Positions 795 to 56,986 of a stretch of DNA of 64,000 nt are shown here, piece after piece. The notes under the pieces were generated by a model. That model did no database searches. It saw only the letters and a list, made by a program, of their open reading frames with translations, and was not told where the DNA came from. The position numbers and the translations under genes are program-made. The first letter of the stretch is position 1; each line of letters starts with the position of its first letter. Source of the stretch: the human T2T-CHM13v2.0 reference genome, Homo sapiens; assembly GCF_009914755.1 (NCBI RefSeq), contig NC_060938.1; one strand, 5' to 3'.

Positions 795-855
795 ATTCTA
801 AGAGCTAAAAGATGGGAAGCTGGTATTTGGGAACTAGATTAAAAAGAAAATCCAA
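795..855 (+). pseudogene. Putative unnamed vestigial TRAJ relic upstream of TRAJ55
   Basis: gaagctggtatttgg identical to TRAJ54 over 15 nt, then gaactagatta...aatccaa (KLVFG/GTRLK..NP with a deletion); donor lost. Confidence 0.5.
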
Positions 856-1448
856 ATTAATCCCAAGGAGCAAGGCTCAATAGATAGTTATTTAGACATA
901 ACATGTCCACCCTGCAAGCCTAGTTGCTCAGTTGACTGGGCTGCCCCTATCTTAGTCTTGCCTGGAAGAGAAATAAGTTGTTTGCCCCATACCTGTCTTG
1001 AGAAATGTCAGCCTCCAGACCTGAAAGCTTCTTGTGATTTGGTTTATTTCTGTAGAGTTTATTATTATACACAGTGTTCTTGAAGTAATAGAGAAGTGCA
1101 TTAGAAGCTCCTGCAAATGGAAATGAAATGTAAATTTAGATTGTAAATACATGACTGCGGTAAATAGATAGCAAGAAAAAGGATGAAGAGATTAGAAATT
1201 TGCCACATTTCTCTAACCCTAAAGGGATGTTTCTATAAATAGTTTAAAACTGTTGAAGACGAAGGGGGAGGAGGAAGGAGAACAGAGGCAAACAGATTTT
1301 CTCCTAATCCTTTCCATTTGGCAAAATTAGAAATGGTTTTTCAATTAAATTTCCCTGAGCAGAGGAAGAAACCATGTCTGTTTCCACACTAAAATTCCTG
1401 TGGGTGGGAGTCTCTAGAGTTGATTTGGAGGATGGATCCCTGTTAGTG

Positions 1449-1505
1449 ACAAGTGCTGGTAATGCTCCTGTTGGGGAAAGGGGATGAGTACAAAAATAAA
1501 TCCAA
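1449..1505 (+). pseudogene. TRAJ55: TRAJ55 pseudogene
   Basis: Degenerate RSS tgatttgga-12-gttagtg (1421-1448); KCW*CSCWGKGMSTKINP with in-frame TAA; donor gtaagt. Confidence 0.92.
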
Positions 1506-2038
1506 GTAAGTGTGGAGGGACAAGAAGATCTCACAGTGCAGGATTTCCCCTGGATTTTCTGCATTGCCTTTTCACCTTTCCTGTCTTAGCACGACAAATT
1601 AGGTCCCAGATGAGCAGGCCCTCGCATTCAAACCGGAAATTTTAAGGAGGAAGCCAGATTAACTTTACTCGGGAGACCTAGTAGACTCTGACTTTAAAGA
1701 TTCTTTTAATCCAGCTGTTTTTAGGGAGAGCTCTGTAAAAGATGAAAGAAATGTTTTAAAAAAAAATTAAAATTCTGTGGGGTGAAAACAAAGATGTTAA
1801 ATATTTGATTGGCAAGGCAACTGGAAAATCTGGACCATGTCTACAACTGCTAAAGGAGGCTTTGTGAAAGAGAAAATGAGCAGCCCAAGGAGATCCTGTC
1901 CTAAACTTCTCTGGCCAGTGAAATTCGGGCCATTCTCTGCCACAGCCCTGGACTGCTAGGAGGGCAGATCATATGTCTTCCTCAGTGGGGAGAGGTGGGC
2001 CCTCGCTGGCAGTTTCTGTAAAGCCTCGTGCTGTGGTG

Positions 2039-2098
2039 TAATTCAGGGAGCCCAGAAGCTGGTATTTGGCCAAGGAACCAGGCTGACTATCAACCCAA
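2039..2098 (+). CDS. TRAJ54: TCR alpha J segment 54
   Basis: RSS agtttctgt-12-tgtggtg (2011-2038); IQGAQKLVFGQGTRLTINP; gtaagt. Confidence 0.97.
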
Positions 2099-2540
2099 GT
2101 AAGTATGACAGGGTGAAGCTACATGCAGCTGAGTACAGTCTTTTCCTTTCTAGACCGTGTCCTGCAAGCTCTCCTTGAGGGACGTATACTCATTTTGCAT
2201 TGTCCTTTGTAGAGAAGCAGACCAGGAAAGACAGGAAAGCCCTCAAATTTCCACTTTTAAACACCTCCCTGTAAAAACTGTCTCGCTTCCCTCCCCTTCT
2301 ACAATCAGTTTCTAGTAAATCAGAATCCGGTGAATTGATATGCAATTTCAACGAAAAAAAAAGCAGAGAAATAGTTACCCCAACAAGTGCAAAAAGTAGA
2401 AACTATCTGAGTACCAGCCAAGGGAAGATAATTAGGAAAGAAAAAAAAAGAAAGAAATGGATTACTGGAACCATGATGGCAGCTTAGTCACAAAGAAAAT
2501 GATAAAAAAAAATTAAAATTAAATTTCAAAAACTTTAAAG

Positions 2541-2579
2541 ATATATACATATATATATATCTATATATATATGATATAT
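2541..2579. repeat. (TA)n-like simple repeat
   Basis: Direct reading. Confidence 0.85.
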
Positions 2580-2755
2580 TGTCCTCTGGAACTCCAGCAC
2601 TCACCTACAGCAGCTGCATTCTGGACTTATTATCAAATAACCTATAAACCTGTAGCTTAATGAAGAGTTGAGCAATCGTGACTATATTGACCCCCAGGAC
2701 CCTTCTGCAAAGAGCAGCTTCTGTTCCTGTTTCTGTAAAGCCTTCTGTGGCTGTG

Positions 2756-2821
2756 AGAATAGTGGAGGTAGCAACTATAAACTGACATTTGGAAAAGGAA
2801 CTCTCTTAACCGTGAATCCAA
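2756..2821 (+). CDS. TRAJ53: TCR alpha J segment 53
   Basis: RSS tgtttctgt-12-ggctgtg (2728-2755); NSGGSNYKLTFGKGTLLTVNP; gtaagt. Confidence 0.97.
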
Positions 2822-4492
2822 GTAAGTTTGAAGGGAGTGGGGGAAGGGGGAATTCAAACACTTCTGATTTAATTACTTGCCCCTCCAAAACATTCCAGCT
2901 TAGGTTCCAAATCTAATGTTTGTGCTGGGGGGATATGGTGCCCATCAGAGGGATTAGAACTCCACTGTACAAAGACTAAATTACTTTCAGCCCAAAACAT
3001 TCCTATCATTCATCTTAAACAAGATTATTGGTGCAAGGAGAAAAACTGAATACAGAATCCTGAGGGATCCAGCTAAGGGTCAGGAAATGTTTGCCGAAAA
3101 GATAAAGAGGAAATTGGCATATCGTGACTACGCAAATGCAGTAGACCAAATATAAATTGTCCTGACTTAGATACTAACACTCCTCTTAAATTTATCGCCT
3201 GAAATAATGGAACCCTGCAACTTCATTAACTAATGCTGAAAATTCTATAAGCAGGCTCCTTTTCTTCTTTTACCTTCACTTTACCTCTCTGAAAAGAACT
3301 GTTCTCAATCCCCAGTCTGGTAACTGAGGTCCAGTCAGTTAACTGTCTGGTTAACTCAGGCAGAGCATTTAACCCCACTTTTTCTTTGGTTACCAAAATA
3401 GTGGATTCAGCCTCCACTTTACTTAGTTCACCTGAGAAGGGGAAAATTCATCTGTCCTCTGAGTCGTGAGAATAGAGCAGTACATTCTCTCCTTCAAATA
3501 TACACCCACCCTTCCCTAATGGTAATGTGTGAGTACTTAGAAAAGTTTTTAAATGTTAGATATAAAAGTAAGGCACAGTGGTTGCTAATGGCACTTCTTG
3601 AAAATCTGCGCTGCTGGTGGACTTCTGAAAGTGGTGCTTATAAACTAAGGCTGGAGAAGACTGACTTGTAAAATTCAGATAAAATGAAAATGGGAAAAAC
3701 TTATCAAAGGGCCCCGGTCTCCTAAGTGCCCTGATGTTGAGTAAAGGCCAAATGCCCCAGTTTTACTTACTCAGATCTGCTTTCTGTGATTAAGAAGAGA
3801 TGCACACTAGAGAGAGGCACTTTGAAAAACACAGCCCAGGCAAAATTCTTAAAAAGACTGGCTCTGGTGGCGGGGCGGGTGGTGAAGGACTCAGGGACAC
3901 CGTGCATGCAGCATTGAGGGAGTTAATGCAGACTTGCTAGCAGACAGCTTGGAACGTTCTGGGATAGGCCCTGCCTGAAGAACATGCAGTGTGGTTAGCC
4001 ATCAAGTTCCCATGTGCAGAAGTGCCTTGCTCAGCAGGGGCAAAATCAGCACGTCTGTGGCAACAGCAACAATGAATAATATATGATGTTAAATCCCAGG
4101 GGTTCAGCAGTCTCCACTGAGGTCTTATCAAATTAAAGCTTCAAGGGGATTCATATGAACATCCCAGGAGACTCAAGGACTCAGTCGCTTTTCAGAGGGT
4201 GGGCAGCCAATGCTAGGGACCAGACAGTAGGCTTTTTTCTTTGGTTTCTTACCGGAAGCACACTAGGGCGGGGCTCTGCGGTGGGTTTTCCAGAATGCAG
4301 AGAAGCTGGGAGCCCCTCTCAGCACTTGGTCAGCCTCTTAGGGGACTGAGAACTGTAACAACTCCTACCTTTTAAAACATTGACGAGGTCAGGGTGTTTG
4401 ACAGCCTAACCAGGCAAAGAAAATATCTGTGCAAGGCTAGCATTCTTCCAGAGCTCTGGACAGTAATCGTATGCCAGATTTTCCATGCAGTG

Positions 4493-4564
4493 GATTCTAG
4501 CTGCAGGAACTATATGGCAAGGCTGGAGTCCAAGGAACCCATGATTAAATTCTGTTTTCCTGCA
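4493..4564 (+). pseudogene. Putative unnamed vestigial TRAJ relic, TRAJ52-like
   Basis: Heptamer tgcagtg as in TRAJ52, patchy similarity to the TRAJ52 coding sequence, intact gtaagt at 4565. Confidence 0.55.
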
Positions 4565-5081
4565 GTAAGTGGAACACAGAGATTATTGCCACAGCAACAC
4601 TTTGGGTGCCTGTCTGTTTGAGGACCTCAGCTGAGGGCAGGCATCTGGTTTTGCTTATGTCCTGCGGAGGCTGAAGAGAGGGTGGGAAGCCCTTTAGACA
4701 GTGAATACTGTGAAATAGTGAAGAGATGGGAAGGGTCGTTTGAATCCCTGACTGCTGTCCTTAAAAAAAATGGATACGTCTTCTTAGCTAAATAATAGCC
4801 TTTTTCTCTCACCCTTTTCATGATAGTAAGCAAGCTAAAACTTTAACCCTTTGTAACAAGTGGTTGCTTGAAGACATGACTAAACAGGCTAGCATAAATT
4901 CAGCCCAAAAAAAGTCTGAGTTAAGAAAACTAAATTCTATTAAAGAGGTGTCTGTTTTTCACACCCCTGGGGGACAGGGTTTGATCATCACCACATCATG
5001 AAACTGCCTGGATTTTGCTCTTCACATTTTTTGTGACATCCAGACACAGCCAGGGTGACTCCCAGGATTCCTGTGGTTGTG

Positions 5082-5137
5082 TCTGTTGGCAACAGAAGCA
5101 TTATTTGGTCAAGGGATGAAATTTACAGGAACCCCAA
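5082..5137 (+). pseudogene. Putative unnamed vestigial TRAJ relic between TRAJ53 and TRAJ52
   Basis: ggttgtg heptamer; open frame LLATEALFGQGMKFTGTP; phase-1 gtaaat at the canonical distance from FGXG. Confidence 0.65.
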
Positions 5138-5979
5138 GTAAATGTGCAAAAGCCTGCCCCTAATAGAGACCTCACTTAACCCTACCACTGTGGTCACCGG
5201 GCTGCTCTGTGAGGTCAGAACACCTCAGGTGAGACTGTGGAGTAACCAGATGCCCTGGTTTTCCTGGGTTTCAGGGGTTTTCCAGGACAAAGGTCATTCT
5301 TTGCTAAGCCCAGAATGATCCCCAGGATAGTTAATCACCGTAAGAAGGCACAGATAAAAACTTTTTTCTGTGAGCTACTACTTACATTTCACCAAATTCA
5401 AGACTGACAAAAAAACTACGTTGTGTGAAAGCTCAGTTACATGTGCCCATCATTTTTATTTCTTATGCTAGGGCATGAAGGGAAGCTCAGGAGATCCTGT
5501 TTCATGAGGCTACAGTCTAAATCTCATCTAATTCTAGTCAGTCTCCAAAAAGCTGAACACTCTCCTCTTGTCTCCTTGTAATCAATTCATTGTCATCAGA
5601 AATGTGTGACACCTCGAGGGGAGGGGAGGACGTGTCTTGAAAACTGATCAGAGAAATTGTCCTGAAAATGATGCTGTAAAATGGAAATGAGACCTTTAGA
5701 AAGAGAGATGCTGAACATGAGAAATCAGTAAGCCTCAAGACAAAAACCAGAGGAAATGGAGAGAGATGGGAGGCAGGAAGCCGGACCTCGGGGGACGCAG
5801 CAGGTCAGTGTCCCAGGACCAGAGGTGGAAATGGTCTTCCAGCCTTTGGTGGGATGAAACTGAGCCTCACAGACCCAGGCCCCTTTGGGTGAGTTTATTC
5901 TCCCCAGAATTAAAAGAGGAGGAAGTCTGCGAGCTTCAGAAGTCCCCCTAGGGTTCTTGTAAAGGCCTCCAGTGCAGTG

Positions 5980-6048
5980 CTAATGCTGGTGGTACTAGCT
6001 ATGGAAAGCTGACATTTGGACAAGGGACCATCTTGACTGTCCATCCAA
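5980..6048 (+). CDS. TRAJ52: TCR alpha J segment 52
   Basis: RSS ggttcttgt-12-tgcagtg (5952-5979); NAGGTSYGKLTFGQGTILTVHP; gtaagt. Confidence 0.97.
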
Positions 6049-6934
6049 GTAAGTGTAACAAGACACAGCAGTATACTGGAAATTCTGGAATGTCACCCCA
6101 GTGTCAGGTTTTAAAGAACCAGATATTGCTTAAAGTTAAGTGGTGTCCTCTGAGGTCCTTTCTCTTCTTTAACCTCAATATTCACAGATTTTCTTTTGGA
6201 CCCTGAGTTGTTAGGTCTGTCTCCCTGCTGCGTGTACAGCTGACCTTGACCCTGGAAAGTCAGAATCTTTCCTGCTTTCAGTGTCTTCTCTGGAGGTGAT
6301 GCCCTAACTTTTTTGAGGGGGAGGTCATCCTTTCCAAATGACTCCCCTGAGTAACCTGTTCTAATGTTTAGTAGCATTCCCTGTCAGAAGTCCTTCCTTA
6401 CCTCAATCTTAAATTATTCTTGGTATAGCCGAGGCCGTTTCCACCAGCGTCATCCACAATAAAGAGGAAAATTGAGAGCGGAGTTTGAATAGGTATGTGG
6501 TATTTGGTTCAGAATGGGTTTTAAATGAAAGTGGAGAGGGAAAAAATGAAACCTGAATGGGAATCTGAGGTCTTATTTCAAATCCCTCTCTGTTTCCTGT
6601 CTGTCATCTCCTTTTGCTTCTATAGATGCAAAACTACAGAGAGAGAGGCGGGGAGAGAAAGGATAGACAGAAATAAACATCCACTGTGTCCATTCCCTGT
6701 CACTGAAACCACCAGGCAAGGGATTACAATTAATTCCAAAGAGTTTCAGATACACGGCTTAATACCTTTCTCCTTGTGGTGACTTGTATCCTGGCTGATA
6801 ATTAGAGCAGATAGAAAGATTTGGCTTTGGTGTGTTTGCCGCTGCACCCCGCTGGGAAGAGACAGAAACTTGACTGTTTTTTAAGATTCATAAAGTTCCT
6901 TCTGTCAGTCGTTGTAAAACTCCCTGAAGCAGGG

Positions 6935-6997
6935 AGATGCGTGACAGCTATGAGAAGCTGATATTTGGAAAGGAGACATGACTAACTGTGAAGCCAA
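6935..6997 (+). pseudogene. TRAJ51: TRAJ51 pseudogene
   Basis: Broken heptamer agcaggg; MRDSYEKLIFGKET*LTVKP with stop; donor mutated to gcaagc. Confidence 0.93.
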
Positions 6998-7661
6998 GCA
7001 AGCTGGAAAGACCTAAACTCACAGTGTTCCTTATGTACTTTTGCTCCCTTCCCCGTTTCAGGCCTTTTGGCTGTTTCCTGTAGGGATTCTAAGAGAGTCA
7101 AATGGAAATGGATTGAAGAGAGTCTGAAGCCCCGTGGGTGCTCAGAAATGATAAATGAAAGGAATAAGAGACAGAAAGGGAAACAAAGTTGAAAAGCAGG
7201 AATATGTCTTTCACTGCAGCTTGATAAGACTGAGATGTGAGGTGGGTGTCAGAGAAGGGCATGATCGCTCCAGCTGCTATTGCAGAACACTCTGTTTTCC
7301 TAGGATCTCTATCAAGGGCAGTGTCCTCTTATGCCAAAGGGATGAGTCAAGTCCCTATATTTCTGGAGTAGCTGCCCTTGTGCAGGCATAGTTGGTCAGG
7401 CAGACAGCACAATCCCAGCTCAGTGTGTATGGAGGAGGCCACCTGACATTGCCAGCTGTATCTGCTCCATTCAATGGCAGCATAAATCCATACCAGGTGG
7501 GTGTGGATTTGGAATATGCCAGTGCCACTACAAGGCTGAATGTTGAGTTGTTGTGATCATCTTGAATGTGTGAGATGCCTCCAAGTGAAGTCTGGTTCTA
7601 ATGAGCAGGGTGCAGGTTGGACCAATATTGCCCATTTTCTGTTGAGTTTCTCCAAGCCCAG

Positions 7662-7728
7662 TAGTGTGGGAGCCAACATTGAGAGACTGACATTTGAGCT
7701 AGGGATCCTATTGACTGAAATATGCCAA
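7662..7728 (+). pseudogene. Putative unnamed vestigial TRAJ relic between TRAJ51 and TRAJ50
   Basis: SVGANIERLTFELGILLTEI, nonamer-like attttctgt with 12-bp spacer, broken heptamer, donor lost. Confidence 0.6.
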
Positions 7729-8344
7729 AGGGATCTGAAAGGTCAAAACTGCCTTCAGAGCTCAGCCTTTGTTGTTATCTCTCTGGCAGTTGTCATTTCA
7801 GCAAAATGCATCCACTTAGAAAGCTCAGCTCTTCATTAGGCAGACAAATGAGAACAACATATTGACCAGAGATAAGGAGTTGGGAGCCCAGATCTCAGCC
7901 TCTGAGAGCCTGGCATTTCCAGTTCTTTAATCACATGAGCCAGTGAGCATATGCTATCTCAGAGAAAGCAGATCAATGGTGCCTGAGGACCTGGTGTCAC
8001 CAAGCTAGGGCTTAGAGACAGAAATGAGATGCAGATGGGGATGTTGTGTGAATTGGGGAATAATAGAGAAGTGAGGAGGAGACAGGGAGTTCAATGATGC
8101 TTTTTAAAACCAGCAGCATGTGAGAAATTGTAATGACACAAAGGTGAAGAAGTATGTATTGCATATAATCCTAGCAAGTTTCCTACCATTCCCAACAGAA
8201 TCTAGCCTCACTGTGGCTCCAACTCACAGATCCTATAGGTAATGCTGAATCGTACCTGAGATGCCTTTTGAAGTGGCATCAAGACTGGGCTCTAAAATCT
8301 TTAAGAGTCACCTGTCAGTTATTGTAAAGGTTTGGATGGCTGTG

Positions 8345-8404
8345 TGAAAACCTCCTACGACAAGGTGATATTTGGGCCAGGGACAAGCTTATCAGTCATT
8401 CCAA
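8345..8404 (+). CDS. TRAJ50: TCR alpha J segment 50
   Basis: RSS agttattgt-12-ggctgtg (8317-8344); KTSYDKVIFGPGTSLSVIP; gtaagt. Confidence 0.97.
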
Positions 8405-9486: not shown

Positions 9487-9666
9487 ATCTATCTGTCTAT
9501 CTATCTATCCAGCTATCTATGTATCTATCTATCTATCATCTATCTCAGAAATAGTTGTTTTTAACAGTTGATTCTGTGCCTCACCCAAATTGTCATTAAC
9601 TAAATGCAGATGTGCTGCCACACTGATAAACTTCATTGGAAAAAAAGAAAAAACCAAACCCAGAGA
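9487..9666. repeat. Left arm of inverted repeat flanking TRAJ48, including (TATC)n
   Basis: 9547-9666 is the reverse complement of 10856-10975 with 4 mismatches. Confidence 0.9.
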
Positions 9667-10242: not shown

Positions 10243-10305
10243 TATCTAACTTTGGAAATGAGAAATTAACCTTTGGGACTGGAACAAGACTCACCATCAT
10301 ACCCA
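10243..10305 (+). CDS. TRAJ48: TCR alpha J segment 48
   Basis: RSS ggtttttgc-12-cactgtg (10215-10242); SNFGNEKLTFGTGTRLTIIP; gtaagt. Confidence 0.97.
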
Positions 10306-10855: not shown

Positions 10856-11481
10856 TCTCTGGGTTTGGTTTTTTGTTTTTTTCCAATGAAGTTTATCAGT
10901 GTGGCAGCACATCTGCATTTAATTAATGACAATTTGGGTGAGGCACAAAATTAACTGTTAAAAACAACTATTTCTATGCAGCCATAAAAAATGATGAGTT
11001 CATGTCCTTTGTAGGGACATGGATGAAACTAGAAATCATCATTCTCAGTAAACTATCGCAAGAACAAAAAACCAAACACCGCATATTCTCACTCATAGGT
11101 GGGAATTGAACAATGAGATCACATGGACACAGGAAGGGGAACATCACACTCTGGGGACTGTTGCGGGGTGGGGGGAGTGGGGAGGGATAGCATTGGGAGA
11201 TATACCTAATGCTAAATGACGAGTTAGTGGGTGCAGCACACCAGCATGGCACATGTATACATATGTAACTAACCTGCACAATGTGCATAAGTACCCTAAA
11301 ACTTAAAGTATAATAATAAAAAAAAACAACTATTTCTGAGATAGATAAATGATAGAGAGAGGGAGATACTGGATATATATACACAGTTAATGACAATTTG
11401 GGTGAGGCACGGAATTAACTGTTAAAAACAACTATTTCTGAGATAGAGAGAAAGAGAGAGATACTGGATATATATACACAG
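10856..11481. repeat. Right arm of inverted repeat, interrupted by L1 and partly tandem-duplicated (11387-11481)
   Basis: Direct reading against the left arm; ttaatgacaatttgggtgaggcac...aacaactatttct occurs twice. Confidence 0.88.
10976..11321 (+). mobile_element. 5'-truncated L1 3' end (L1PA2/L1PA3-like)
   Basis: L1 ORF2 tail and 3'UTR (gggagggatagcattgggag...acttaaagtataataa), poly(A), 16-bp TSD aaaaacaactatttct at 10960-10975 and 11322-11337, TT/AAAA site. Confidence 0.95.
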
Positions 11482-17469: not shown

Positions 17470-17892
17470 GTGAGTTTTTGTGGTTTACTAATTGTCCTCT
17501 CTGGAAAGAAATCCAATGGGACCTGTTGAAACACAGCTGAATTTAATTGCTATGCTTAGCATGCAGTTGTTAACTATGTCTGATGTGTGAGCAAGATATG
17601 AATACATGTTTCCCTGGAGGCTGGATTTGGTTATCAGGTCTCGGGGCAGTTTGATAAATTGTACTAATGCTGCAATCACTGTTTTTCAAAGGTCCACAAA
17701 GCACGTTGTGGCTTTGGGAAAGGCAGAGATAAGAAGCAAAGCTTTGTGATAGAGACAGAAACAAGGCCATGAAAAGGGAAGCTACCAAAGCAATGGCATA
17801 GCCAAGGAAGTGTGTCCTCAACAGATAAGTGGCAAGGACCCTGTTGAGTTGATGCTTGTGTTGTCTGGTAGAATTAAAAAATAAGATGAGTG

Positions 17893-32660: not shown

Positions 32661-33690
32661 GTAAGTGCTGTTTATGTGATTTTCTGACATTAACTCCCAC
32701 TGAGTTCAAACTGCTGAGAGTGTTCAGTAGGAAAGTTTCTAAGACATGTGGGTGGCCTGTAGGTCCTGGGCTCTTCTCTTGCAGAGGTCCAGTCCTCAGC
32801 CTTTCCACAGCTGAGCCAAATACCAAATTCTCCCCTCCAGGGCTGGAAAAGTTGCTACCAGTCCTCTGCTACCCAAATATAAATTATTTTTTTATTGTTT
32901 ATTAAGAAGAGTAAAAGAATCGTGACACTTTGTCCAGAACCTATTTTCCAGTCTTTTCCCCCAGGCTTGTCCCTGGTAACCTCTGTTTGGACTCATTGTT
33001 AAGCCCAGCGTGATTTTTGGCTCCAACTAAATTGATTTTGGAAATGACTCCAGCATACCTATGACCCCTCTCCTTCCACCCTCCATAAAAGATTTATTTT
33101 TCTTTATTTGGCCTCTGCTGAGATTCCTGGCTTTGATGCCCCAGGATCTCTCATTTCCCTTGTTCCAGGGATAAGTGAGAGATGACTTTTTAAAGAGCTA
33201 CTTTCATCTTAGAGACAACAAAGAGAGTATGCCAGCAAGAGCAACATCTTGCATTGAGCCTTCTCACTCTATGCCATTTTCCAAATCTTTTTCTTTATTT
33301 AGGATAAGTGACCACTCCTTTTTATTTCTAGTACAGCAAAGAGTACATCATGATGTCAGAAACAGGGATTTCCTTTGGAATGTTTTTCACAGGCTAACAA
33401 TAAGCTAGAAGTCTGCAAGCAATTCAGAAATGCATCCCTGAGCTACAACTCCATGTATGGAAGCTCATCAGCAGGGTAGACAGGCAAAGCAGAAACATTT
33501 TAATTATACCATACTTTGTAGAGATTGGGGGAGAAGTGGGCAAATGCGTGCTAAGGAAAAACAAAAACTATGGTTAAGTGGGGAGATTTCTAGATGGTTC
33601 TAACAGGGAAGAAGACCAACAAGAGGAAACTTCCAGGAAAACCACCAAGGCCAGGCATTCAGGGTTTTTGTTATGGAGGAAATCACTGTG

Positions 33691-36965: not shown

Positions 36966-38196
36966 TAATGATAAACATCATCTCTAACCCACAGCAGAGC
37001 CTTTGTTTGGCCCCTGGGGCTCTTCTGTCAAGGTTCTGTTGTGCATCAGCAGCAGAGCTGGAATTGGGGGGAGGGTGGAGAATGTCAGCCTGTTCTATGA
37101 AATTCTTCACCTGGGATTTGAAAGTGGAAATACAAAGAATCCTGACTAATTTAAATACAAAATCATCCAAGTGTCAGAGGCAGGGGAGAGGTTTCTGCAG
37201 AGAGCTGCATAGCTGGGATCCTCAAGGCTACACACACACGCTTGGAGCAGGGATGCGGTTCACAGGATGGCAGGGCAAAGGTTGCAGAACTGAAACCTTG
37301 TACTTCCCCATCACCAAAATGACCCCAGCATGATTTCCTTTAAGGTGTCCCGAGCCCCTTCCCAAAAGACAGGCTCCCCATGTGGAGGGGCAATGACAGA
37401 GGGAAGATGGAAACTTTATGGGAAGGGCGATCTATCCCAAGGTTGTCCTTCTCCTCTTCAGGGTAGTGAAGCTCATGAGAAATATGGCTCCTGAAAATAG
37501 CCACTAAATGAAACTCTCCAACCTGGAGGTAGAGGATCAGTAAAGTCTGCAGAGGCAAAATGAGGCAGTTTATTTCAAAGAAAAGAGGTTGAGGGCAAGG
37601 TGGGAGTTAAGTCACACATCTAAATCTGGGAAAGGAAGCATTAAACAGAAGACGGAGGGGCTCGGCTCTCCACCTCCACCAGGATTCAGACCACAGGACA
37701 TGGCTAATACTGCAAGAAGGGAGTTAGGTTAGTGGTAAAACCTTTCTAATAGGTTTTTGAACAGTGAAAATGAGCTGTCAGGAGTAGTTGCCAGGGCACT
37801 TTCTCTAGAGAGTTTTTGAAAGGAGATAGACACCCTGCTATCAGAGGTGATTGGAGTGCAGCCCTGCCTCGAGGCAGGAGGAGAAATGAGAGAACCTCTT
37901 AAAGCCTCTTTCCAGCCCCCAGAGCCTGTCTCCATGAAAAAGGCCCAGGCTCATTAATGCAGAGCTGCATCCTCCAGGACACAGGGGGTTGCTGGGTTGT
38001 TAAGTTTGGAACCTTTGCCGGCTTAGTGGTTACCAAACTCCTTTTGTTCTCAAGACTTGACTTGATAAATGGGCTGGCTTTATCCCTTTAAAGCCAAAAA
38101 CACAGGTTCTGAGTGCTGTGTTGTTTGTGGTGTTGAGATGCCCAGGCTGGAGGGAGGAAGCTCTAGGGGGTTTTTGCTGAGCCCAGAAACACTGTG

Positions 38197-49377: not shown

Positions 49378-49437
49378 CCAACCAGGCAGGAACTGCTCTG
49401 ATCTTTGGGAAGGGAACCACCTTATCAGTGAGTTCCA
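49378..49437 (+). CDS. TRAJ15: TCR alpha J segment 15
   Basis: RSS ggtatttgc-12-cactgtg (49350-49377); NQAGTALIFGKGTTLSVSS; gtaagt. Confidence 0.97.
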
Positions 49438-50075: not shown

Positions 50076-50127
50076 ATTTATAGCACATTCATCTTTGGGA
50101 GTGGGACAAGATTATCAGTAAAACCTG
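50076..50127 (+). CDS. TRAJ14: TCR alpha J segment 14
   Basis: RSS catttttgt-12-tgctgtg (50048-50075); IYSTFIFGSGTRLSVKP; gtaagt. Confidence 0.96.
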
Positions 50128-50823
50128 GTAAGTAGGCAATATGTCACTAAAGTAGGAGGCTTAATGTGGCTACTGAGACCCACTAAACTTACTGCAGTAT
50201 TTGGAAGGCCCAAGTGTCAAGAAATTAATGGTTTATGCAGACTTAAGTGGATTCCAATGAAGGAAGAAATGTTAAAGTAATGGCACAGAGGATAGAAGAG
50301 CTAGCTGTGAAAAAAAATAGCCATGTGGATGAACCAAACGCAACAGACTGAAAGAGCCTAGAGAGTTGATCCTAAAGAAAAAGGCAGAAAGTCTGGCTGA
50401 GCACTTCCAGTTCTTCTGACCTGGCTTGATTAGTGAATCTGGGCCACAGTATCTTTATCTATAAAATGAAAACATTTAATATCACCTCAGATTTTTTGTT
50501 TTAATTTTGTGGGTACATAATAGGTGTATATATTTATTTTAAAGATAAGCTAATATATGTGAAAGTATTTTGTAAATTCTTAAATGCTATCCACATGTAA
50601 AATATTATTTGTTTATAGAACAAAAAAAACTATGTCAGATTTAGAATTCTTTTAACATGAGAATTTGTAGGTTCTTAGTGAAATAGCCATTTACATGTGA
50701 TCTGTAGCCCTAGGCATTGGTAAAAAGCACTTTCTCTTCTACTGAAATATAGTGGCTCAAATGCTACCCAAATGAAAAGGGCAGGGGAAGGGAAGTCATT
50801 TTGTAAAGGCAGGCATTACAGTG

Positions 50824-50886
50824 TGAATTCTGGGGGTTACCAGAAAGTTACCTTTGGAACTGGAACAAAGCTCCAAGTCATCCCAA
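50824..50886 (+). CDS. TRAJ13: TCR alpha J segment 13
   Basis: RSS tcattttgt-12-tacagtg (50796-50823); NSGGYQKVTFGTGTKLQVIP; gtgagt. Confidence 0.97.
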
Positions 50887-51686
50887 GTGAGTCCAATTTC
50901 CTATGCTTTCCTCTTCCTTGTGTTGTCTTCTCTCAGACCGTAACATTTGGAGCACATAAAGAGATATTATGGGCCTGCTCTTTTCTGGCTGTTTCAGGAG
51001 ACTGAAAAGGATTGTATAAGAACATCCTTTAGCATGTTCTTAGTATTGTTTTGTCCAGTGTGTGTTTCTTCTTAATATCAAAAAAAACTAAGACATTGCC
51101 TGTGAAGCCAATGGAAAACAGTAGATTTGCAAAGAAAAGAACTAAAGAGAAGACAAGTGGTACTTTTTACCAAGCTTAAAGCAGAGAGGGTGTCCTTTAA
51201 TCAGAGGGATGCTTGGTTCTGGGGGCTGGATAGGACTCAGGTAAGTAACAAGGCTACCACTGAGTCACTGAGCTTCTAAAATGAGTTGACTCGGGGGAGC
51301 AGGAAGCTGCCACTCATGATGATCTGAATGCTATTCCGTGAAGTTTCAGATTGATTGAAGTTAAAATTAGGGGTGACACTATGTCAGGAATCTAAAAATT
51401 GATAACTGTAATGGAAATGAAAGAAGGGCTAGCTACATCTGTTGGATAAATGGAGTTGAAAATCATGAATTTGATGGCGACAGACCCAGAGAGTTGGGCA
51501 GGTAGAAACTTCATTTCAAGTGATATGCAGTAAATACCCCAAATTTGAGTCAAATGGCCTGTGTAAAAAGGAAGTGAAAATGTAACCCGTATCTCCTTGT
51601 AGGTGAAAAGGCCATATCTCTAGGTCTTAGGTATGAAAAGGATGTGTGGGCTTCTGGGTGTTTTTGACTGACTAAGAAACACTGTG

Positions 51687-51746
51687 GGATGGATAGCAGC
51701 TATAAATTGATCTTCGGGAGTGGGACCAGACTGCTGGTCAGGCCTG
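51687..51746 (+). CDS. TRAJ12: TCR alpha J segment 12
   Basis: RSS tgtttttga-12-cactgtg (51659-51686); MDSSYKLIFGSGTRLLVRP; gtaagt. Confidence 0.97.
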
Positions 51747-52249
51747 GTAAGTAAGGTGTCAGAGAGGCAACAGAAAGATTGAGGGTAAAATGTCTTCATG
51801 TCTCAGGAAATGATTGTATAATGCAAAATGAGCTGGAGTTTTTTAGGAGCACTGTTACTAGAGTTCTGATGTCTGGTTCTAGCAAAAGAACCCTAATATA
51901 GCTGTAATCCCTCTCTAGAAGGAACAAGGAAGAGGATTCTTCTCTGAAAGCTCCTCCTAAGATTTATCCATCCTCTGCCAAAGTGTCTTGTGGATCCAGG
52001 ATACTTACATCTTTGTTAGCAGTGCTGGCCCAACCTGCTCAGCCTCAGATCACCTATCCCTCATTTGTAAAATGAGGATAATATTTAAGCTCATGGCACA
52101 GTTGAAGCCCAAATGAGGTAGTGGAATATATGCAGATTATTAATCCATTTGGCTCATAAATGAAGGTTTTCTTTCCTTTTCCCTAAGTAGATCATGGGTT
52201 GAAATACCTAACACTGCAAATCATTTTTGTATGGGGATTTGCTATAGTG

Positions 52250-52309
52250 TGAATTCAGGATACAGCACCCTCACCTTTGGGAAGGGGACTATGCTTCTAG
52301 TCTCTCCAG
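52250..52309 (+). CDS. TRAJ11: TCR alpha J segment 11
   Basis: RSS catttttgt-12-tatagtg (52222-52249); NSGYSTLTFGKGTMLLVSP; weak donor CAG|gtacat. Confidence 0.97.
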
Positions 52310-52914
52310 GTACATGTTGACCCCATCCCACCCATGTTTTCCCCTTATCTGGTTTAAGGCTTCCATATGTATTGCGTGTTATCCTCATGGATTTCATCAT
52401 CCTTGTTTTATTATCAATGTTCTGTGAATTTAAGATTGAGCCTCCATGGACTCTTCATTTAAAAATGAAAATAGCTAATAGAAGAGTTGGAAATAACAGT
52501 AGAACTAATTCACTAGGTCAGGATGGAGAAGGGAGTAATACCCTAGACAATTAGGACAAACGTGGTTTTTCCAGAAATAGACTCACTTCCTGTTTAAAGC
52601 CTAGACTGTGGTCTCTCCCCGGGCACCCTTCACATTCCTCTAACCCTCCATATCCCAAATTTAGCTGTGGAATCTTAGACAATCTGTGACCTATGCAGCT
52701 ACAGAAATCTTTTCTTACTGAGAATATCTGCCTATTTGAACCAAAAGATCCTTGAGAATAGACAGTCTCTAATATTCCATGAAGTGTCTGATATGGTCCT
52801 TTTACAAAAGTAAATACTTGATAAATTCTTGCTTAATTGAAGTTAAACACCCAAAGAAATCAGGTTTCCAGGCCAAAGGGAAGAAGAAAATTAAGCAAAT
52901 GACACAGTACATTT

Positions 52915-53065
52915 GAGCGTGTAGTGGGGAGGAAGAAATGCTAGATTGGGATTCAAATAGAGCCATGTTTTGGTCTCTGCTGCCAACTAGCAATGTAACT
53001 TAGACCAGATCTCTTGCCTCTAAGCCTCAGTTTCTTTATCTGTAAATGGGGAAGTGGGTCCAATG
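52915..53065 (+). mobile_element. MIR remnant (approximate)
   Basis: gcctcagtttctttatctgtaaatgggg. Confidence 0.65.
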
Positions 53066-53244
53066 GCCTCTTTGGCCTCTTAGTACAAAAAGTCTATGAA
53101 TGTATCCCATTTGGGGCACTTTTTTCTCCTAGGAGTAACTCAATAGCTATTTTAAAGCTTGAGTGTTTTCTAACTCATTAGAGCACATCAAGAAGAGGGG
53201 TGAAGTGACAAAAGGGAGTTTATTGTGAGGCATCAAACACTGTG

Positions 53245-53308
53245 ATACTCACGGGAGGAGGAAACAAACTCACCTTTGGGACAGGCACTCAGCTAAAAGT
53301 GGAACTCA
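53245..53308 (+). CDS. TRAJ10: TCR alpha J segment 10
   Basis: RSS agtttattg-12-cactgtg (53217-53244); ILTGGGNKLTFGTGTQLKVEL; gtaagt. Confidence 0.97.
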
Positions 53309-54074
53309 GTAAGTATGAGATTCTATGGTAATTACAAAATGTATTCTGGTGACAATAAGTGGAAGAAAAGGTGATGTAATTTTTGTCATTGTATCTTATT
53401 TTTAATCTATTACTGAAGCATTAAGAATTGTGACATCCAGATAAATTAGTGAAAGTATTCAAAGGCTATATAAGCATGCTTTCTTTAGGGTGGAATTTAG
53501 CTAACCACTAAGACTTTTTCCAAGATATGAGATTTTCAGCTCTCTTCAACGTGAGAGTTTTTAATACTAGTATTAAGCTAAACGATGCTCAATGGAAGAA
53601 AAGAGCTAGAAGAGCAGAAAATTGCACCGTCATGATCAAATAGATCCTTTCTACTTCCACTGCCATGGACTCAGTGATGCATTTAGAAGAGGGTATTCAA
53701 GGTCATTTTAGCCATGCCCCAAAAAAACCACTCCCAATTCATTCCAGAGATTGTGCCCCCTTATGCTAAACATCATCCAAGAAGAGTCAGTGAAGTACAG
53801 AGAAAGGAACCCAGGGCTTCTTGTTTCGGTCCAGAGTTCTAGGTTTGATTTGGTCCCAACTGGATGTGTGATATTGGAACGAGTCATTGCCCCTCTCTGC
53901 ACCTCAGACTCCTCCAGTGGATGAGGGGGTCAAAGCCCTCAAAATCTGTTGTTCTGGGATTTCGCTATTATACCACCCGAGAGTTTATAGGACTCGAGAG
54001 TATGGAATCTTGTGAGTATTTCATAAACAAATTCTATGACCCTCAGGAAATAGCCCTGTTAATCAACAACCTAA

Positions 54075-54295
54075 CTTAACATAGAAATAATAACCACCAT
54101 CTCAGTCCCTACCATGTTTAGATACGATGCTAGATGCATGACATGTAGAATTGTTCATCTGAAATAACTCTGTGAGGTAAGGGGAAGTATCTTATTTTAC
54201 AAAAGAAGAAACTGAGGCTCAGAGAAGGAAGTGCCCAAGATCCCAAAGCTAGTAAGTAAAGGGCCTAAATTTAAACTTGGGTCTGCCTGCCTGAC
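54075..54295 (-). mobile_element. MIR remnant (approximate)
   Basis: attttacaaaagaagaaactgaggctcagaga. Confidence 0.65.
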
Positions 54296-54315
54296 TAAAA
54301 AGCCCTGCTCTTTCT

Positions 54316-54501
54316 TTTTTTTTATTTTATTTTATTTATTTATTTATTTATTTCTGAGACAGAGTCTTGCTCTGTCACCCAGGCTGGAGTGCAGTGCAGT
54401 CTCAGCTCACTGCAGCCTCTGCCTCCCAGGTTCAAGCGATTCGATTCTCCTGCCTCAGCCTCCCAAGTAGCTGGGGTTACAGGCATGCGCCACCACACCT
54501 G
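54316..54501 (-). mobile_element. 5'-truncated Alu (right arm only)
   Basis: Right monomer plus tail; TSD aaagccctgctctttct on both sides. Confidence 0.92.
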
Positions 54502-55301
54502 AAAGCCCTGCTCTTTCTACTGCATGATGTCGTAGAGCTTGTGCTCTAGTTTACTTAGAAATGAGAGGTGATGCCAATCACAGTGACTGGTGAAATGCTT
54601 GGAATTTATCTTTTCTACTTTAGATATTGCTGTGAGTTAGAGAGGGTGCTTCGGGAAATCTTGACATGGATGCCCCAAGTGTCTAAAGAGTTCTCCTCCC
54701 CTTTCAATGACAAAACAAAGTACAGAGTTGCTGGGAGCATTTACCCCAATAGGGAGAAAAGAGAGGGGAGCTGGCTGCAGCCACTCCCTTGTTCTGACTG
54801 TCCCTTTCCTTCGCTGTTTCTTGTATTTTCCCCAGGCAGACCAGCCACCAATATAACTGATCTACAAGAGCCTGACTCCTTTGTGAGTTATAGAGAAATG
54901 CAGGGTGAAGGCACTTTGCACATAGAACTTTAGCTCTGAGAGACAGCCTCAAAATATCTAGTTCACCCCTCTTTATTTTCCCAATAAGGAAATTAAGACC
55001 CAGAGAGGTTGGCTGAATTGTCTAAGGTCAGTGCGAACTAGGGCTGGGACTAGAACCTGGAGATCCTGGTCCTGGGGCCATATTCTGTGACTGCTGTTTG
55101 GTGAACTAAACTTCTGATAGGTAGGAAGTGTGAGTTATGCTCATAAACAGGAAAAACAAATAGGTTTTACAAGGGGAGTATAAAAATGTCCTCCTTATTA
55201 CTAGCACCTTAGTATAGGCTCCCTAGACCTGCTCCCCAGCTGTGGTGTAAAAATGGAAGGAGAAGGAAATGGCCCATTTTGTCGCAGTGCAAATCACTGT
55301 G

Positions 55302-55362
55302 GGAAATACTGGAGGCTTCAAAACTATCTTTGGAGCAGGAACAAGACTATTTGTTAAAGCAA
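55302..55362 (+). CDS. TRAJ9: TCR alpha J segment 9
   Basis: RSS ccattttgt-12-cactgtg (55274-55301); GNTGGFKTIFGAGTRLFVKA; gtaagt. Confidence 0.97.
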
Positions 55363-55892
55363 GTAAGTTCCATGAAATAACCTGATTTATATTACAGTTG
55401 AAGAACATCTGTTTTCATTGATTTTTTTCTTTTTAGGGGGAAGGGGACATAGTTTTGTCTGCCAGTTAAATTAGAAGATACATTGGCAATAATAATGTTG
55501 CACTGTACATTATCCATGGGCATCACTCTTGCAAGAAACATGTATAATAACAAACAGTTAAGTGTGGATGGATAAAACTTCCCTAGGTCCTATCTAGAAC
55601 TGAAACTCTGTAATTATATTAATAACTTTTTTAACTTGAATATTAGTGACATTTTTATATAACCCAAGGTATACAAAGCAGAATCTTCAGTTGGGTTCTA
55701 TCTGATTTGTTGTCATCTTCCAATGGTCTTAGGAAAATTAAGGTTAAATAGTAAGATTAGATGCCTCCTACCACTTTGGTACATGCATGCAGACATAGAA
55801 ACACCCTTAGTAACTAACTTGCATGTGACTTGGCAATCCTAGGCTATGGCCCAGTGACAGGGTCCCATTTTGTACAGAGTTATGTCAGAGTG

Positions 55893-55952
55893 TGAACACA
55901 GGCTTTCAGAAACTTGTATTTGGAACTGGCACCCGACTTCTGGTCAGTCCAA
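55893..55952 (+). CDS. TRAJ8: TCR alpha J segment 8
   Basis: RSS ccattttgt-12-cagagtg (55865-55892); NTGFQKLVFGTGTRLLVSP; gtaagt. Confidence 0.97.
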
Positions 55953-56923
55953 GTAAGTCAAATCTGCAGAAATGTGTAGCCCTATCCTCAATATTGGGCA
56001 TATATGGATATAATTATTCTGGTCTATAATAGATTATTATTACTACTATTTTGTTCTTATTAATCATAACAATGCTGCTAATTTCAAATATACATTTTCT
56101 GCCATATTATTATTTTTACCTTTAAGGAGAATTATTGTCAAGATATCAGGAGGGAAATATTTGAATTTCCTTTGAGTCAAGTTTCTTATTTGTTCGTCAG
56201 TTCCCACCTCTCTGCTGAGGGTCATATGAACCTCACGATGTTTTGGTTTTTATACCGCCTTCTTATTATCTCTCTTAGAAATGCTTCCTTGGTTTTTCCT
56301 TGCCTAAGCACTTAGATTTTGCAGCTCACATTTACCCAGAGTATACTTAGCTTTTAACCTCTCCCAAAACTGGCCTCCCTGTCCCAATAATTATGCACAG
56401 TAAAAGTCAGTTCAATTCAGTAAATGATTATTGAGTATCATCAACAAACCAGGGAATCATCATTGGTTTTAAAAGAAAGAAACAAAGAAAAGAATTTTTA
56501 AAACCCTAAGCTATCTTAGGCTTCTGATCTCAAGAACTTCCAGTCTTATCAGAGAAACTAAGCACTCATAATAAAAAGTCTAACAAAAATTTATATGTGT
56601 ATGTGCCAAGATAGGGGGGTGGGTTTCCTGAGGGCTGGAGACAGGACAGGTATGACCATGCACAGCCGCATTCTTTGGCAGAGAACACACATGATTCCCC
56701 CAAATATGTTTCTGGAAACGGAATTGAGTCTGTTCTGTGCTGAGATCTTTGACTTTCTTGAGGACAAAAGCCCCCTTGGCAGTTAGCATCCTTGAGCGGG
56801 GGTGAGGACAGAAACAGGAATGAGTCAGGCGTGAGTCACCCAAGACTCTCACTCAGCCCCAAGAGGATGGAGTGACTCTGAGTCATGCCGAGGCATGTCT
56901 TTAGCATGTGCTCCAGCACAGTG

Positions 56924-56986
56924 TGCATTTATGGCAAGGTGAAAAATACATTTTTGCACATGTCACTAGGAAAATGGTACCTTCTT
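56924..56986 (+). pseudogene. Putative unnamed vestigial TRAJ relic between TRAJ8 and TRAJ7
   Basis: tgtctttag-12-cacagtg then 63 nt HLWQGEKYIFAHVTRKMVPS; donor lost. Confidence 0.55.

What the first reader, a model, noticed from the sequence alone, without database searches (positions are those of the whole stretch)
795..56986. Possible hidden layer of unnamed fossil J segments between the named TRAJ genes
Seen: at least a dozen inter-J intervals hold a + strand 50-70 nt stretch with decayed J architecture (heptamer-like site, K/R-L-x-F/W-G-x-G-T-like frame, ending near cca a, sometimes a GT donor); each is listed separately below. Established: the human nomenclature numbers 61 TRAJ, and none of these positions matches a numbered gene. 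Inference: the ancestral array was denser, and the 'spacers' are partly dead J units whose leftover heptamers and donors could act as RAG decoys or cryptic splice sites in germline transcripts. This could contribute to the known high non-coding conservation of the J-alpha region. Caveat: short degenerate motifs invite false pattern recognition, and I read mainly the + strand.
Basis: partly seen in the sequence, partly recalled or inferred. Interest (0 to 1): 0.8.

Follow-up and report, generated by a model that had tools for sequence, protein, structure and literature searches.

The report
A few unnamed dead TRAJ segments

Summary
The window holds TRAJ55 to TRAJ2, 54 units, all on the + strand. 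A profile HMM of all 54 RSS+J+donor units was scanned over the masked inter-J DNA on both strands, over 200 dinucleotide shuffles, and over 440 kb (both strands) of other human DNA.

Five + strand loci rise above every control:
- A: 5054-5145
- B: 7662-7717
- C: 10876-10961
- E: 37190-37264
- F: 61511-61578

A, C and E are firm. They also pass an independent ungapped RSS-plus-core test that nothing on the minus strand or in 400 kb of control DNA passes. B and F are probable.

All five score better than the named pseudogene TRAJ55 does when it is left out of the model. They sit preferentially in the longest inter-J gaps (P = 0.01).

"At least a dozen" is not supported. The relics cover under 1% of the inter-J DNA. 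Only C keeps a plausible RSS and only A keeps a J-type splice donor.

Verdict: real, small and ordinary; new members of a known kind, J pseudogenes. The cross-species test could not be run with these tools.

The parts
5054..5145 (+). Relic A, between TRAJ53 and TRAJ52 (longest gap, 3120 nt). Weak RSS-like site 5054-5081 (heptamer GGTTGTG at 5075-5081). Open J-like frame 5082-5137 reading ...ALFGQGMKFTGTP, with FGQG at 5104-5115. Donor GTAAAT from 5138.
   Evidence: HMM 7.1 bits, 7.4 with the 50-J model. Ungapped core+donor PWM 8.0-8.6 bits against -0.7 to -1.0 for the best minus-strand site. FGXG-to-donor PWM 20.2 bits, next best 3.9. Exactly 7 codons plus 1 nt between FGXG and GT, as in all 54 named units. 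J-end+donor 12-mer 12.2 bits, the only inter-J + strand position that high; named donors range 5.3-18.0. RSS PWM only 1.2. Single copy in the genome.
7662..7717 (+). Relic B (probable), between TRAJ51 and TRAJ50. Heptamer-like TAGTGTG at 7662-7668, then a J-like frame ...ERLTFELGILLT. No donor, and no RSS12 at the right spacing.
   Evidence: HMM 9.9 bits, E 0.03; 9.5 with the 50-J model. Best local match is to TRAJ52. RSS PWM -4.2; ungapped core PWM -2.1. Single copy. It ends where the RefSeq 'enhancer' 7717-7876 begins (hub table).
10876..10961 (+). Relic C, between TRAJ48 and TRAJ47 (second longest gap). RSS12-like site: nonamer TTTTTTTCC, 12-nt spacer, heptamer CAGTGTG (10897-10903). J-like frame ...QFG*GTKLTVK, with TGA at the X position of FGXG. 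No donor.
   Evidence: HMM 13.2 bits, E 0.003; 14.8 with the 50-J model. RSS PWM 13.2, second best of all inter-J + strand sites. Combined RSS+core 17.0 against a control maximum of 8.4.
9547..9666 (-). Inverted copy of relic C and its flanks: the left arm of an inverted repeat around TRAJ48. It carries the same RSS-like site at 9646-9619 on the minus strand.
   Evidence: Arms 9547-9666 and 10856-10975: 120 nt, 97% complementary, 1189 nt apart; 116 of 120 identical. Only three copies in the whole genome, all local. HMM 7.2 bits on the minus strand.
11387..11439 (+). Partial direct copy of the 3' half of relic C, lying behind an inserted L1 3' fragment.
   Evidence: 53 nt, 96% identical to 10923-10975. 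HMM 5.9 bits.
37190..37264 (+). Relic E, between TRAJ27 and TRAJ26 (third longest gap). RSS12-like site: nonamer GGTTTCTGC, 12-nt spacer, heptamer AGCTGGG (37211-37217). J-like frame ...THTLGAGMRFTG. No donor.
   Evidence: HMM 10.1 bits over model positions 2-80; 7.3 with the 50-J model. RSS PWM 17.0, the best in all inter-J DNA and within the range of named J, 14.4-30.9 for 50 of 54. Combined RSS+core 21.1. Single copy.
61511..61578 (+). Relic F (probable), between TRAJ5 and TRAJ4. Heptamer-like AGGTGTG, then a J-like frame ...QKFTFGIRH*. No donor, no nonamer.
   Evidence: HMM 9.0 bits, E 0.058; 7.7 with the 50-J model. FGXG-to-donor PWM 1.3. RSS PWM -7.1. Single copy.
33006..33067 (+). Candidate D, not supported.
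   Evidence: HMM 6.3 bits, but below 4 bits with the 50-J model. Combined RSS+core 3.0.
795..870 (+). At noise level.
   Evidence: HMM 2.8 bits at 813-832. Read by eye, it shares a run of about 14 nt with the TRAJ54 core.
56896..56990 (+). At noise level.
   Evidence: HMM 3.6 bits with the 36-J model. Combined RSS+core 1.4. Core PWM -2.2 to -4.8.

Best explanation
The inter-J DNA of the human TRAJ array contains a small number of genuine, unnamed, dead J gene segments. In this window three are firm (A 5054-5145, C 10876-10961, E 37190-37264) and two are probable (B 7662-7717, F 61511-61578).

They are leftovers of birth-and-death turnover in a tandem array. Each was once an RSS12 + J + donor unit in the array's orientation. 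After it lost function it drifted neutrally. Different modules survive in different relics:
- A keeps the open FGQG frame and the donor.
- C and E keep the RSS12 and a damaged core.
- B and F keep only a heptamer-like site and a damaged core.

They most likely do nothing now. C has since been copied in inverted orientation, so TRAJ48 sits inside a 120-nt inverted repeat.

Shown: the excess over controls, the module anatomy, the placement in long gaps. Inferred: ancestry from live J segments, neutrality, and an age of roughly 0.2-0.3 substitutions per site.

The remaining J-like frames that a reader can find by eye are what chance gives on either strand.
For: 1. Profile HMM excess. Five + loci score at least 7 bits against a shuffle mean of 0.20 (0 of 200 shuffles reach 5). 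Random human DNA gives 0 hits of at least 6 bits in 400 kb. The only minus-strand hit is the inverted copy of C.
2. The same five loci come out on top with a model built from 50 J, leaving out TRAJ55, 51, 35 and 19.
3. Independent modules coincide. The two best RSS12-like sites in all inter-J + strand DNA lie directly in front of the J-like cores of E and C, at J-type spacing. The combined RSS+core score is at least 12 for E, C and A. No minus-strand site reaches 12, and the 400-kb control maximum is 8.4.
4. A has the exact FGXG-to-donor length of all 54 named units and the only J-type donor junction in the inter-J + strand.
5. Left out of the model, the named pseudogene TRAJ55 scores 3.5 bits and every other named J scores at least 24.8. 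The five relics score 7.1-13.2, so they are better preserved than one already named relic.
6. They lie in gaps ranked 1, 2, 3, 6 and 18 of 53 by length, P = 0.010.
7. A, B, E and F are single copy in the genome. C has only its two local copies, so none is a dispersed repeat.
8. Two more such hits lie in the 6 kb upstream of the window, at 13.0 and 6.3 bits.
9. Simulated neutral decay of named J gives 7-13 bits at about 0.2-0.3 substitutions per site.
Against: - The donor-less ungapped core PWM shows no + strand excess: 3 versus 3 hits at 3 bits or more, control 1.6. Its single best hit is on the minus strand, at 2677-2720 (15.0 bits).
- A local control region 3' of TRAC gave one 22-nt hit of 8.8 bits. 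B (9.9) and F (9.0) are only just above the best control hit.
- The control DNA is modest: 440 kb counting both strands.
- No orthologous sequence from another species could be examined, so descent from a live J is inferred from anatomy alone.
- Annotated arrays of cattle, sheep, dromedary, dog and mouse have 59-62 non-duplicated TRAJ, reported as corresponding to the human and mouse genes. They offer no intact counterpart (passages only).
Confidence: 0.75

Rival explanations
1. One reading: a pervasive hidden layer of a dozen or more dead J units fills the spacers, most of them too decayed for a profile to detect.
For: In the decay simulation only 47% of dead J still score at least 6 bits at 0.3 substitutions per site, 21% at 0.4 and 8% at 0.5. 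Five detected relics could therefore stand for ten or more. Weak + strand hits exist in other long gaps (17675-17745 at 1.8-2.0 bits; 813-832 at 2.8 bits). Two further hits turned up in only 6 kb upstream.
Against: There is no excess below the top five:
- Hits of 4-6 bits: one on + (a duplicate of C) against two on -.
- FGXG frames: 19 versus 16 versus 13.6, with flanks like control DNA (p = 0.36; p = 0.79 without A and C).
- RSS-like sites are equal on both strands and in control DNA.

The claim cannot be told from chance with this sequence alone.
Confidence: 0.15
2. All candidates are chance matches of short degenerate motifs.
For: A 22-nt chance match of 8.8 bits occurs in control DNA. FGXG frames are common everywhere. 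The minus strand holds a 15-bit ungapped core match at 2677-2720.
Against: 0 of 200 shuffles reach the observed count. There are no hits of at least 6 bits in 400 kb of random human DNA. RSS and core coincide at E and C. A has the exact J architecture. The loci are placed in the longest gaps, P = 0.010.
Confidence: 0.03
3. The stretches are young fragments copied from living J segments by partial duplication or gene conversion, not remains of separate ancestral units.
For: C has demonstrably been copied twice locally. B resembles TRAJ52 most closely.
Against: The best local alignments to any of the 54 named units are short and weak: scores 17-21.5 at +1/-1 scoring. A, B, E and F have no second copy in the genome. 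Their scores fit about 0.2-0.3 substitutions per site of decay, which is not young.
Confidence: 0.05
4. At least one candidate, A, is still a usable and overlooked TRAJ of the ORF class.
For: Open frame, FGQG, exact spacing, and a donor of 12.2 bits, above 9 of the 54 named donors. In the HTGTS-TCR-seq paper the human libraries used TRAJ bait primers (section 2.8 read). I infer that a join to an unannotated J would not appear there.
Against: The RSS12 PWM is 1.2 bits, against at least 14.4 for 50 of 54 named J, and the nonamer is unrecognisable. The core GMKFTGTP departs from the consensus. No expression data were available.
Confidence: 0.05

Closest known systems
TRAJ55, TRAJ51 and TRAJ60: the named human TRAJ pseudogenes
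   Same: Dead J units in the array's orientation between functional TRAJ genes. TRAJ55 has lost its RSS (PWM -0.1) and its FGXG motif, and scores only 3.5 bits when left out of the model. TRAJ51 and TRAJ55 have no annotated counterpart in cattle and sheep (Table 4 as quoted in the passages).
   Different: The five loci carry no name in RefSeq (hub table) or in the IMGT gene order. They are better preserved than TRAJ55 but far worse than TRAJ51 (24.8 bits).
Named J pseudogenes inside other J clusters (IGHJ1P-IGHJ3P, TRBJ2-2P); recalled, not checked in any call
   Same: Precedent for pseudo-J segments interspersed among functional J segments and catalogued as such.
   Different: Those have names. 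Whether they are as decayed as the loci here was not examined.
Cryptic recombination signal sequences
   Same: C and its inverted twin carry a CAGTGTG heptamer, a 12-nt spacer and a T-rich nonamer, PWM 13.2. That is above three named units (TRAJ55, 51, 19) and just below TRAJ2 at 14.4.
   Different: No evidence of cleavage. Apart from E and C, RSS-like sites in the spacers are no more frequent than in control DNA.

Membership tests
TRAJ gene unit (J-RS + J-REGION + donor) | Lies inside the TRAJ cluster in the transcriptional orientation of the array | tested here: met
   All five loci are on the + strand between named TRAJ genes.
TRAJ gene unit (J-RS + J-REGION + donor) | Nonamer, 12-nt spacer and heptamer directly 5' of the J region | tested here: inconclusive
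   RSS PWM: E 17.0 (but heptamer AGCTGGG), C 13.2 (heptamer CAGTGTG), A 1.2, B -4.2, F -7.1. Named units score 14.4-30.9 for 50 of 54.
TRAJ gene unit (J-RS + J-REGION + donor) | In-frame F/W-G-X-G motif | tested here: not met
   Met by A only (FGQG). C reads FG*G, E reads LGAG, B reads FELG, F reads FGIR. 52 of 54 named units match the motif.
TRAJ gene unit (J-RS + J-REGION + donor) | Fixed distance from FGXG to a GT donor (7 codons + 1 nt) | tested here: not met
   Met by A only, with donor 12-mer 12.2 bits. The block is ungapped in 54 of 54 named units. The same rule is described for zebrafish J elements (PMC10322711 figure legend).
TRAJ gene unit (J-RS + J-REGION + donor) | Found rearranged to TRAV or spliced to TRAC | not testable with these tools
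   No repertoire, HTGTS or RNA data are on hand. The human HTGTS libraries in PMC12822386 used TRAJ bait primers.
J pseudogene / relic (as TRAJ55) | Similarity to the J profile above chance, in array orientation, with disabling defects | tested here: met
   Scores 7.1-13.2 bits against a shuffle mean of 0.20 hits at 7 bits or more, and none at 6 bits or more in 400 kb of random DNA. TRAJ55 left out of the model scores 3.5 bits.
J pseudogene / relic (as TRAJ55) | Orthologous intact or better preserved J in another species | not testable with these tools
   No other vertebrate genome is held. Annotated arrays of cattle, sheep, dromedary, dog and mouse hold 59-62 non-duplicated TRAJ, reported as corresponding to the human and mouse genes (passages only).

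The most novel reading that the evidence does not exclude
Relic A (5082-5137) is not quite dead. Its open FGQG frame, exact J length and good donor would let it splice to TRAC in germline transcripts, and occasionally after heptamer-only RAG cleavage at GGTTGTG. That would make it an overlooked 62nd TRAJ, which repertoire pipelines would discard as unassignable.

In the same vein, the RSS12 of relic C and its inverted twin at 9619-9646 could give rare deletional and inversional joins on either side of TRAJ48.
Probability: 0.05. Interest if true: 0.55.

Novelty: new member of a known kind. Interest (0 to 1): 0.3.

Why it matters
The human J-alpha array shows traces of at least three to five lost units in this window, plus one or two just upstream. 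The ancestral array therefore probably held somewhat more than 61 segments, and its widest gaps are partly explained by dead units.

It also shows that the 61-gene nomenclature is uneven. The named pseudogene TRAJ55 is less J-like than five unnamed stretches.

Practically, A (open frame and donor) and C (plausible RSS in both orientations around TRAJ48) are specific sites to check in thymocyte RAG-break, junction and splice data.

The relics do not explain the high non-coding conservation of the region, because they cover under 1% of the spacer DNA.

Tried and rejected
- Top hit C as a dispersed repeat. It occurs on both strands, so I first took it for a repeat family. A whole-genome search found only three copies, all local, so it is a locally duplicated relic.
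- Shared origin of A and E. Their cores read alike (GMKFTG and GMRFTG), but a wider alignment of the two regions found nothing beyond a 20-nt chance match.
- Candidate D (33006-33067). It drops below 4 bits with the 50-J model.
- Ungapped PWMs for core only, core+donor, and FGXG-to-donor. Only A stands out, and the donor-less core gives no strand excess.
- FGXG frame counts and their flanks. No excess.
- The stretch at 56896-56990 as the remnant of the second TRAJ8 found in cattle and sheep. It lies between TRAJ8 and TRAJ7, but its best local matches are TRAJ23, 42 and 14, not TRAJ8. Left open.
- Literature. Six full-text searches found no report of unnamed J relics in the human TRAJ region. 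Subscription papers, including the 1994 Koop et al. locus papers, are not in that library, so earlier mention there cannot be excluded.
Earlier findings of this scan were not open.


Full report
WHAT THE WINDOW IS. The 36 TRAJ genes listed by the hub have the expected anatomy on the + strand: nonamer, 12-nt spacer, heptamer, J region with FGXG, GT donor. A profile HMM built from those 36 units found 54 strong hits, all on +. These are the 36 plus the 18 unlisted ones, TRAJ19 to TRAJ2. I aligned all 54 units. From about 17 nt before the FGXG codons to 8 nt past the donor the alignment has no gap in any of the 54, a block of 59 columns.

I masked the 54 units and scanned the remaining 58,659 nt on both strands with the 54-unit HMM (nhmmer, all filters off).
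- + strand hits: 10881-10961 (13.2 bits), 37189-37264 (10.1), 7662-7717 (9.9), 61513-61578 (9.0), 5102-5141 (7.1), 33006-33067 (6.3), 11397-11425 (5.9).
- - strand hits: 9643-9561 (7.2), 2725-2697 (4.9), 4597-4554 (4.0).
- In 200 dinucleotide-preserving shuffles made in 500-nt blocks, hits of at least 7 bits on + averaged 0.20 (maximum 2), and 0 of 200 shuffles reached the observed 5. At 9 bits or more the observed count was 4 against a mean of 0.07. The minus strand was at background.
- Twenty 10-kb stretches of the same genome, at positions drawn at random, gave no hit of at least 6 bits in 400 kb counting both strands; the best was 5.6.
- Twenty kb just 3' of TRAC gave one hit of 8.8 bits, a 22-nt FG-core match.
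- A model built without TRAJ55, 51, 35 and 19 returned the same five + loci on top (14.8, 9.5, 7.7, 7.4, 7.3 bits). It dropped 33006-33067 below 4 bits.

THE TOP HIT IS A RELIC THAT HAS BEEN COPIED. The hits at 10881-10961 (+), 9643-9561 (-) and 11397-11425 (+) are one sequence. A search of the whole genome found just these three copies. The structure is as follows.
- An inverted repeat has arms at 9547-9666 and 10856-10975: 120 nt, 97% complementary, 1189 nt apart. It encloses TRAJ48. 116 of 120 positions are identical, and the similarity runs on into a CTAT/GATA microsatellite.
- Behind the right arm lies what I read from memory as an L1 3' end, about 10976-11321. It is flanked by a 16-nt direct duplication. 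It is followed by a 53-nt direct copy of the 3' part of the arm and by a pair of 36-nt direct repeats 95 nt apart.
- I take the + copy as the original because it has the array's orientation. That is an inference.

ANATOMY OF THE FIVE LOCI.
- A (5054-5145). Heptamer-like GGTTGTG, then a 56-nt open frame ...ALFGQGMKFTGTP, then GTAAAT. The distance from FGQG to the donor is 7 codons plus 1 nt, as in all named units.
- C (10876-10961). TTTTTTTCC, 12 nt, CAGTGTG, then ...QFG*GTKLTVK. No donor.
- E (37190-37264). GGTTTCTGC, 12 nt, AGCTGGG, then ...LGAGMRFTG. No donor.
- B (7662-7717). TAGTGTG, then ...ERLTFELGILLT. Closest to TRAJ52.
- F (61511-61578). AGGTGTG, then ...KFTFGIRH*.
- A, B, E and F are single copy in the genome.
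- None lies in the repeat-masked stretches listed by the hub. That list holds only stretches of 100 nt or more.

INDEPENDENT UNGAPPED TESTS.
- RSS-only PWM (28 nt). RSS-like sites are equally common on +, on - and in control DNA. At 10 bits or more the counts are 3, 3 and 2.5 per equal length.
- The two best + sites in all the inter-J DNA, at 17.0 and 13.2 bits, are the ones directly in front of the cores of E and C. Their spacing is within the range of named units.
- Combined RSS+core score. Three + sites reach 12 or more: E 21.1, C 17.0, A 12.1. The best minus-strand site is 8.0, the inverted copy of C. The maximum in 400 kb of control DNA is 8.4. Among named units TRAJ55 scores 3.6 and the next lowest scores 27.7.
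- J-end+donor 12-mer. A's scores 12.2 bits, the only inter-J + strand position that high. The named units range from 5.3 to 18.0.

RESULTS THAT CUT THE OTHER WAY.
- The donor-less core PWM shows no strand excess. At 3 bits or more it gives 3 on + and 3 on -, with 1.6 in control DNA. At 0 bits or more it gives 4 on + and 7 on -.
- Its best hit of all is on the minus strand at 2677-2720 (15.0 bits...QKLLFAEGS; HMM only 5.2 bits). That site lies next to the RSS of TRAJ53 and inside a TRD-AS1 exon.
- F/W-G-x-G 12-mers number 19 on +, 16 on - and 13.6 per equal length of control DNA.
- Outside the motif itself their flanks are no more J-like than in control DNA. The Mann-Whitney p is 0.36, or 0.79 without A, C and C's copy. 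Only A stands out, at -2.8 against a control best of -15.1 among 102.
- So a reader looking for FGXG-like frames will find well over a dozen on either strand.
That is noise level, whatever they look like by eye.

HOW THEY COMPARE WITH NAMED PSEUDOGENES. With each unit left out of its own model, 53 of the 54 named units score 24.8-65.4 bits. TRAJ55 scores 3.5. The five unnamed loci, at 7.1-13.2 bits, are more J-like than one segment that already has a number.

PLACEMENT. The 53 gaps between units average 1078 nt (median 909). The five loci lie in gaps ranked 1, 2, 3, 6 and 18 by length. The mean length of the gaps that hold them is 2124 nt, against 1383 nt expected for randomly placed bases; P = 0.010 in 100,000 draws. 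This fits the idea that the longest gaps are long partly because a unit died there.

AGE AND NUMBER (INFERENCE).
- I mutated the 53 named units other than TRAJ55 in silico, with transitions 2:1 over transversions and a few small indels. Each mutated copy was scored with a model that left that unit out.
- Median scores were 29.0 bits at 0.1 substitutions per site, 13.6 at 0.2 and 5.3 at 0.3.
- The fraction still at 6 bits or more was 0.79, 0.47, 0.21 and 0.08 at 0.2, 0.3, 0.4 and 0.5 substitutions per site.
- The observed 7-13 bits therefore fit about 0.2-0.3 substitutions per site. From memory, that is of the order of, or somewhat more than, the neutral divergence on the human lineage since the placental radiation.
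- This agrees with the literature I could read as passages: 61 TRAJ in human, with the IMGT order table listing only TRAJ61 to TRAJ1; 60 or 62 in cattle; 61 in sheep, or 79 with a duplicated TRAJ29-39 block; 60 in dromedary; 59 in dog and 60 in mouse.
- The cattle and sheep TRAJ sets are tabulated under the human numbers. Cattle TRAJ genes keep the order of their murine and human orthologues. The dog genes are numbered after the mouse genes.
- TRAJ51 and TRAJ55 are absent from cattle and sheep, and those species have a second TRAJ8. None of these papers reports a J set without a human number.
- The simulation also means that five detected relics could stand for perhaps seven to a dozen dead units. 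The sequence itself gives no statistical support for any beyond the five.

BEYOND THE WINDOW. In the 6 kb upstream the HMM found the six named units TRAJ61-56 and two more + hits.
- One of 13.0 bits lies at window -4650 to -4599, between TRAJ61 and TRAJ60. It reads ...RFTSGTGTWLTTAAL followed by GTAAGT, one codon longer than a J.
- One of 6.3 bits lies at -151 to -101 and reads ...DYKLIF....

WHAT THE RELICS COULD DO.
- The six candidate stretches, D included, sum to 486 nt, 0.83% of the inter-J DNA. They cannot account for region-wide non-coding conservation.
- As RAG targets, only C and its inverted twin combine a consensus-like heptamer with a 12-nt spacer and a T-rich nonamer. E's heptamer ends GGG next to the coding flank, where the named J heptamers mostly end GTG. 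That these flank-side bases are needed for cleavage is recalled knowledge. A, B and F have at most a heptamer.
- As splice donors, only A qualifies.
- I could not consult break, junction or RNA data. In the HTGTS-TCR-seq paper, whose section 2.8 I read in full, the human libraries used TRAJ bait primers. I infer that joins to an unannotated J would not appear there. The passages I saw of a preprint on TCR germline variation describe novel alleles of named TRAJ genes only.

PRIOR REPORTS. Six full-text searches found no paper describing unnamed J relics in the human TRAJ region. The original locus papers (Koop et al. 1994, recalled) are not in the searchable library. Prior mention therefore cannot be excluded.

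VERDICT. These are new members of a known kind. Interest is modest.

Noticed in passing
window 9547-9666 (-) and 10856-10975 (+): TRAJ48 (10243-10305) sits inside a 120-nt inverted repeat with 97% identical arms, 1189 nt apart. The similarity continues into a CTAT/GATA microsatellite. The genome holds only these local copies. Such a repeat could mediate inversion of TRAJ48 or form hairpins; whether it is polymorphic is unknown.
   Followed up: partly
window 10976-11481: What I read from memory as an L1 3' end (about 10976-11321) is inserted into the right arm of that repeat, with a 16-nt target-site duplication. A 53-nt direct copy of the arm's 3' part follows at 11387-11439, and a pair of 36-nt direct repeats 95 nt apart lies at 11351-11386 and 11446-11481.
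   Followed up: partly
L024:1350-1420 (window -4650 to -4580), between TRAJ61 and TRAJ60: Another unnamed J-like unit outside the window: 13.0 bits, frame ...RFTSGTGTWLTTAAL followed by a GTAAGT donor, one codon longer than a normal J.
   Followed up: partly
   Followed up: no
window 2677-2725, minus strand: A J-like core on the wrong strand (...QKLLFAEGS...). It scores 15.0 bits with the ungapped 44-nt core PWM but only 5.2 bits with the HMM. It lies directly beside the RSS of TRAJ53 and inside the TRD-AS1 exon 2605-2711. It is either a chance match or an inverted fragment; not resolved.
   Followed up: partly
window 1415-1513 (TRAJ55): The named pseudogene TRAJ55 scores only 3.5 bits against a model of the other 53 units, and -0.1 with the RSS PWM. 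It is less J-like than five unnamed stretches, so the nomenclature is uneven.
   Followed up: yes
window 17675-17745, between TRAJ41 and TRAJ40: A nonamer-like GTTTTTCAA, a heptamer-like site, and an FGKG frame almost directly behind it. Two weak HMM hits of 1.8 and 2.0 bits. It could be a J with most of its 5' part deleted, or chance.
   Followed up: no
window 7717: Relic B ends exactly where the RefSeq 'enhancer' feature 7717-7876 begins. Probably coincidence.
   Followed up: no
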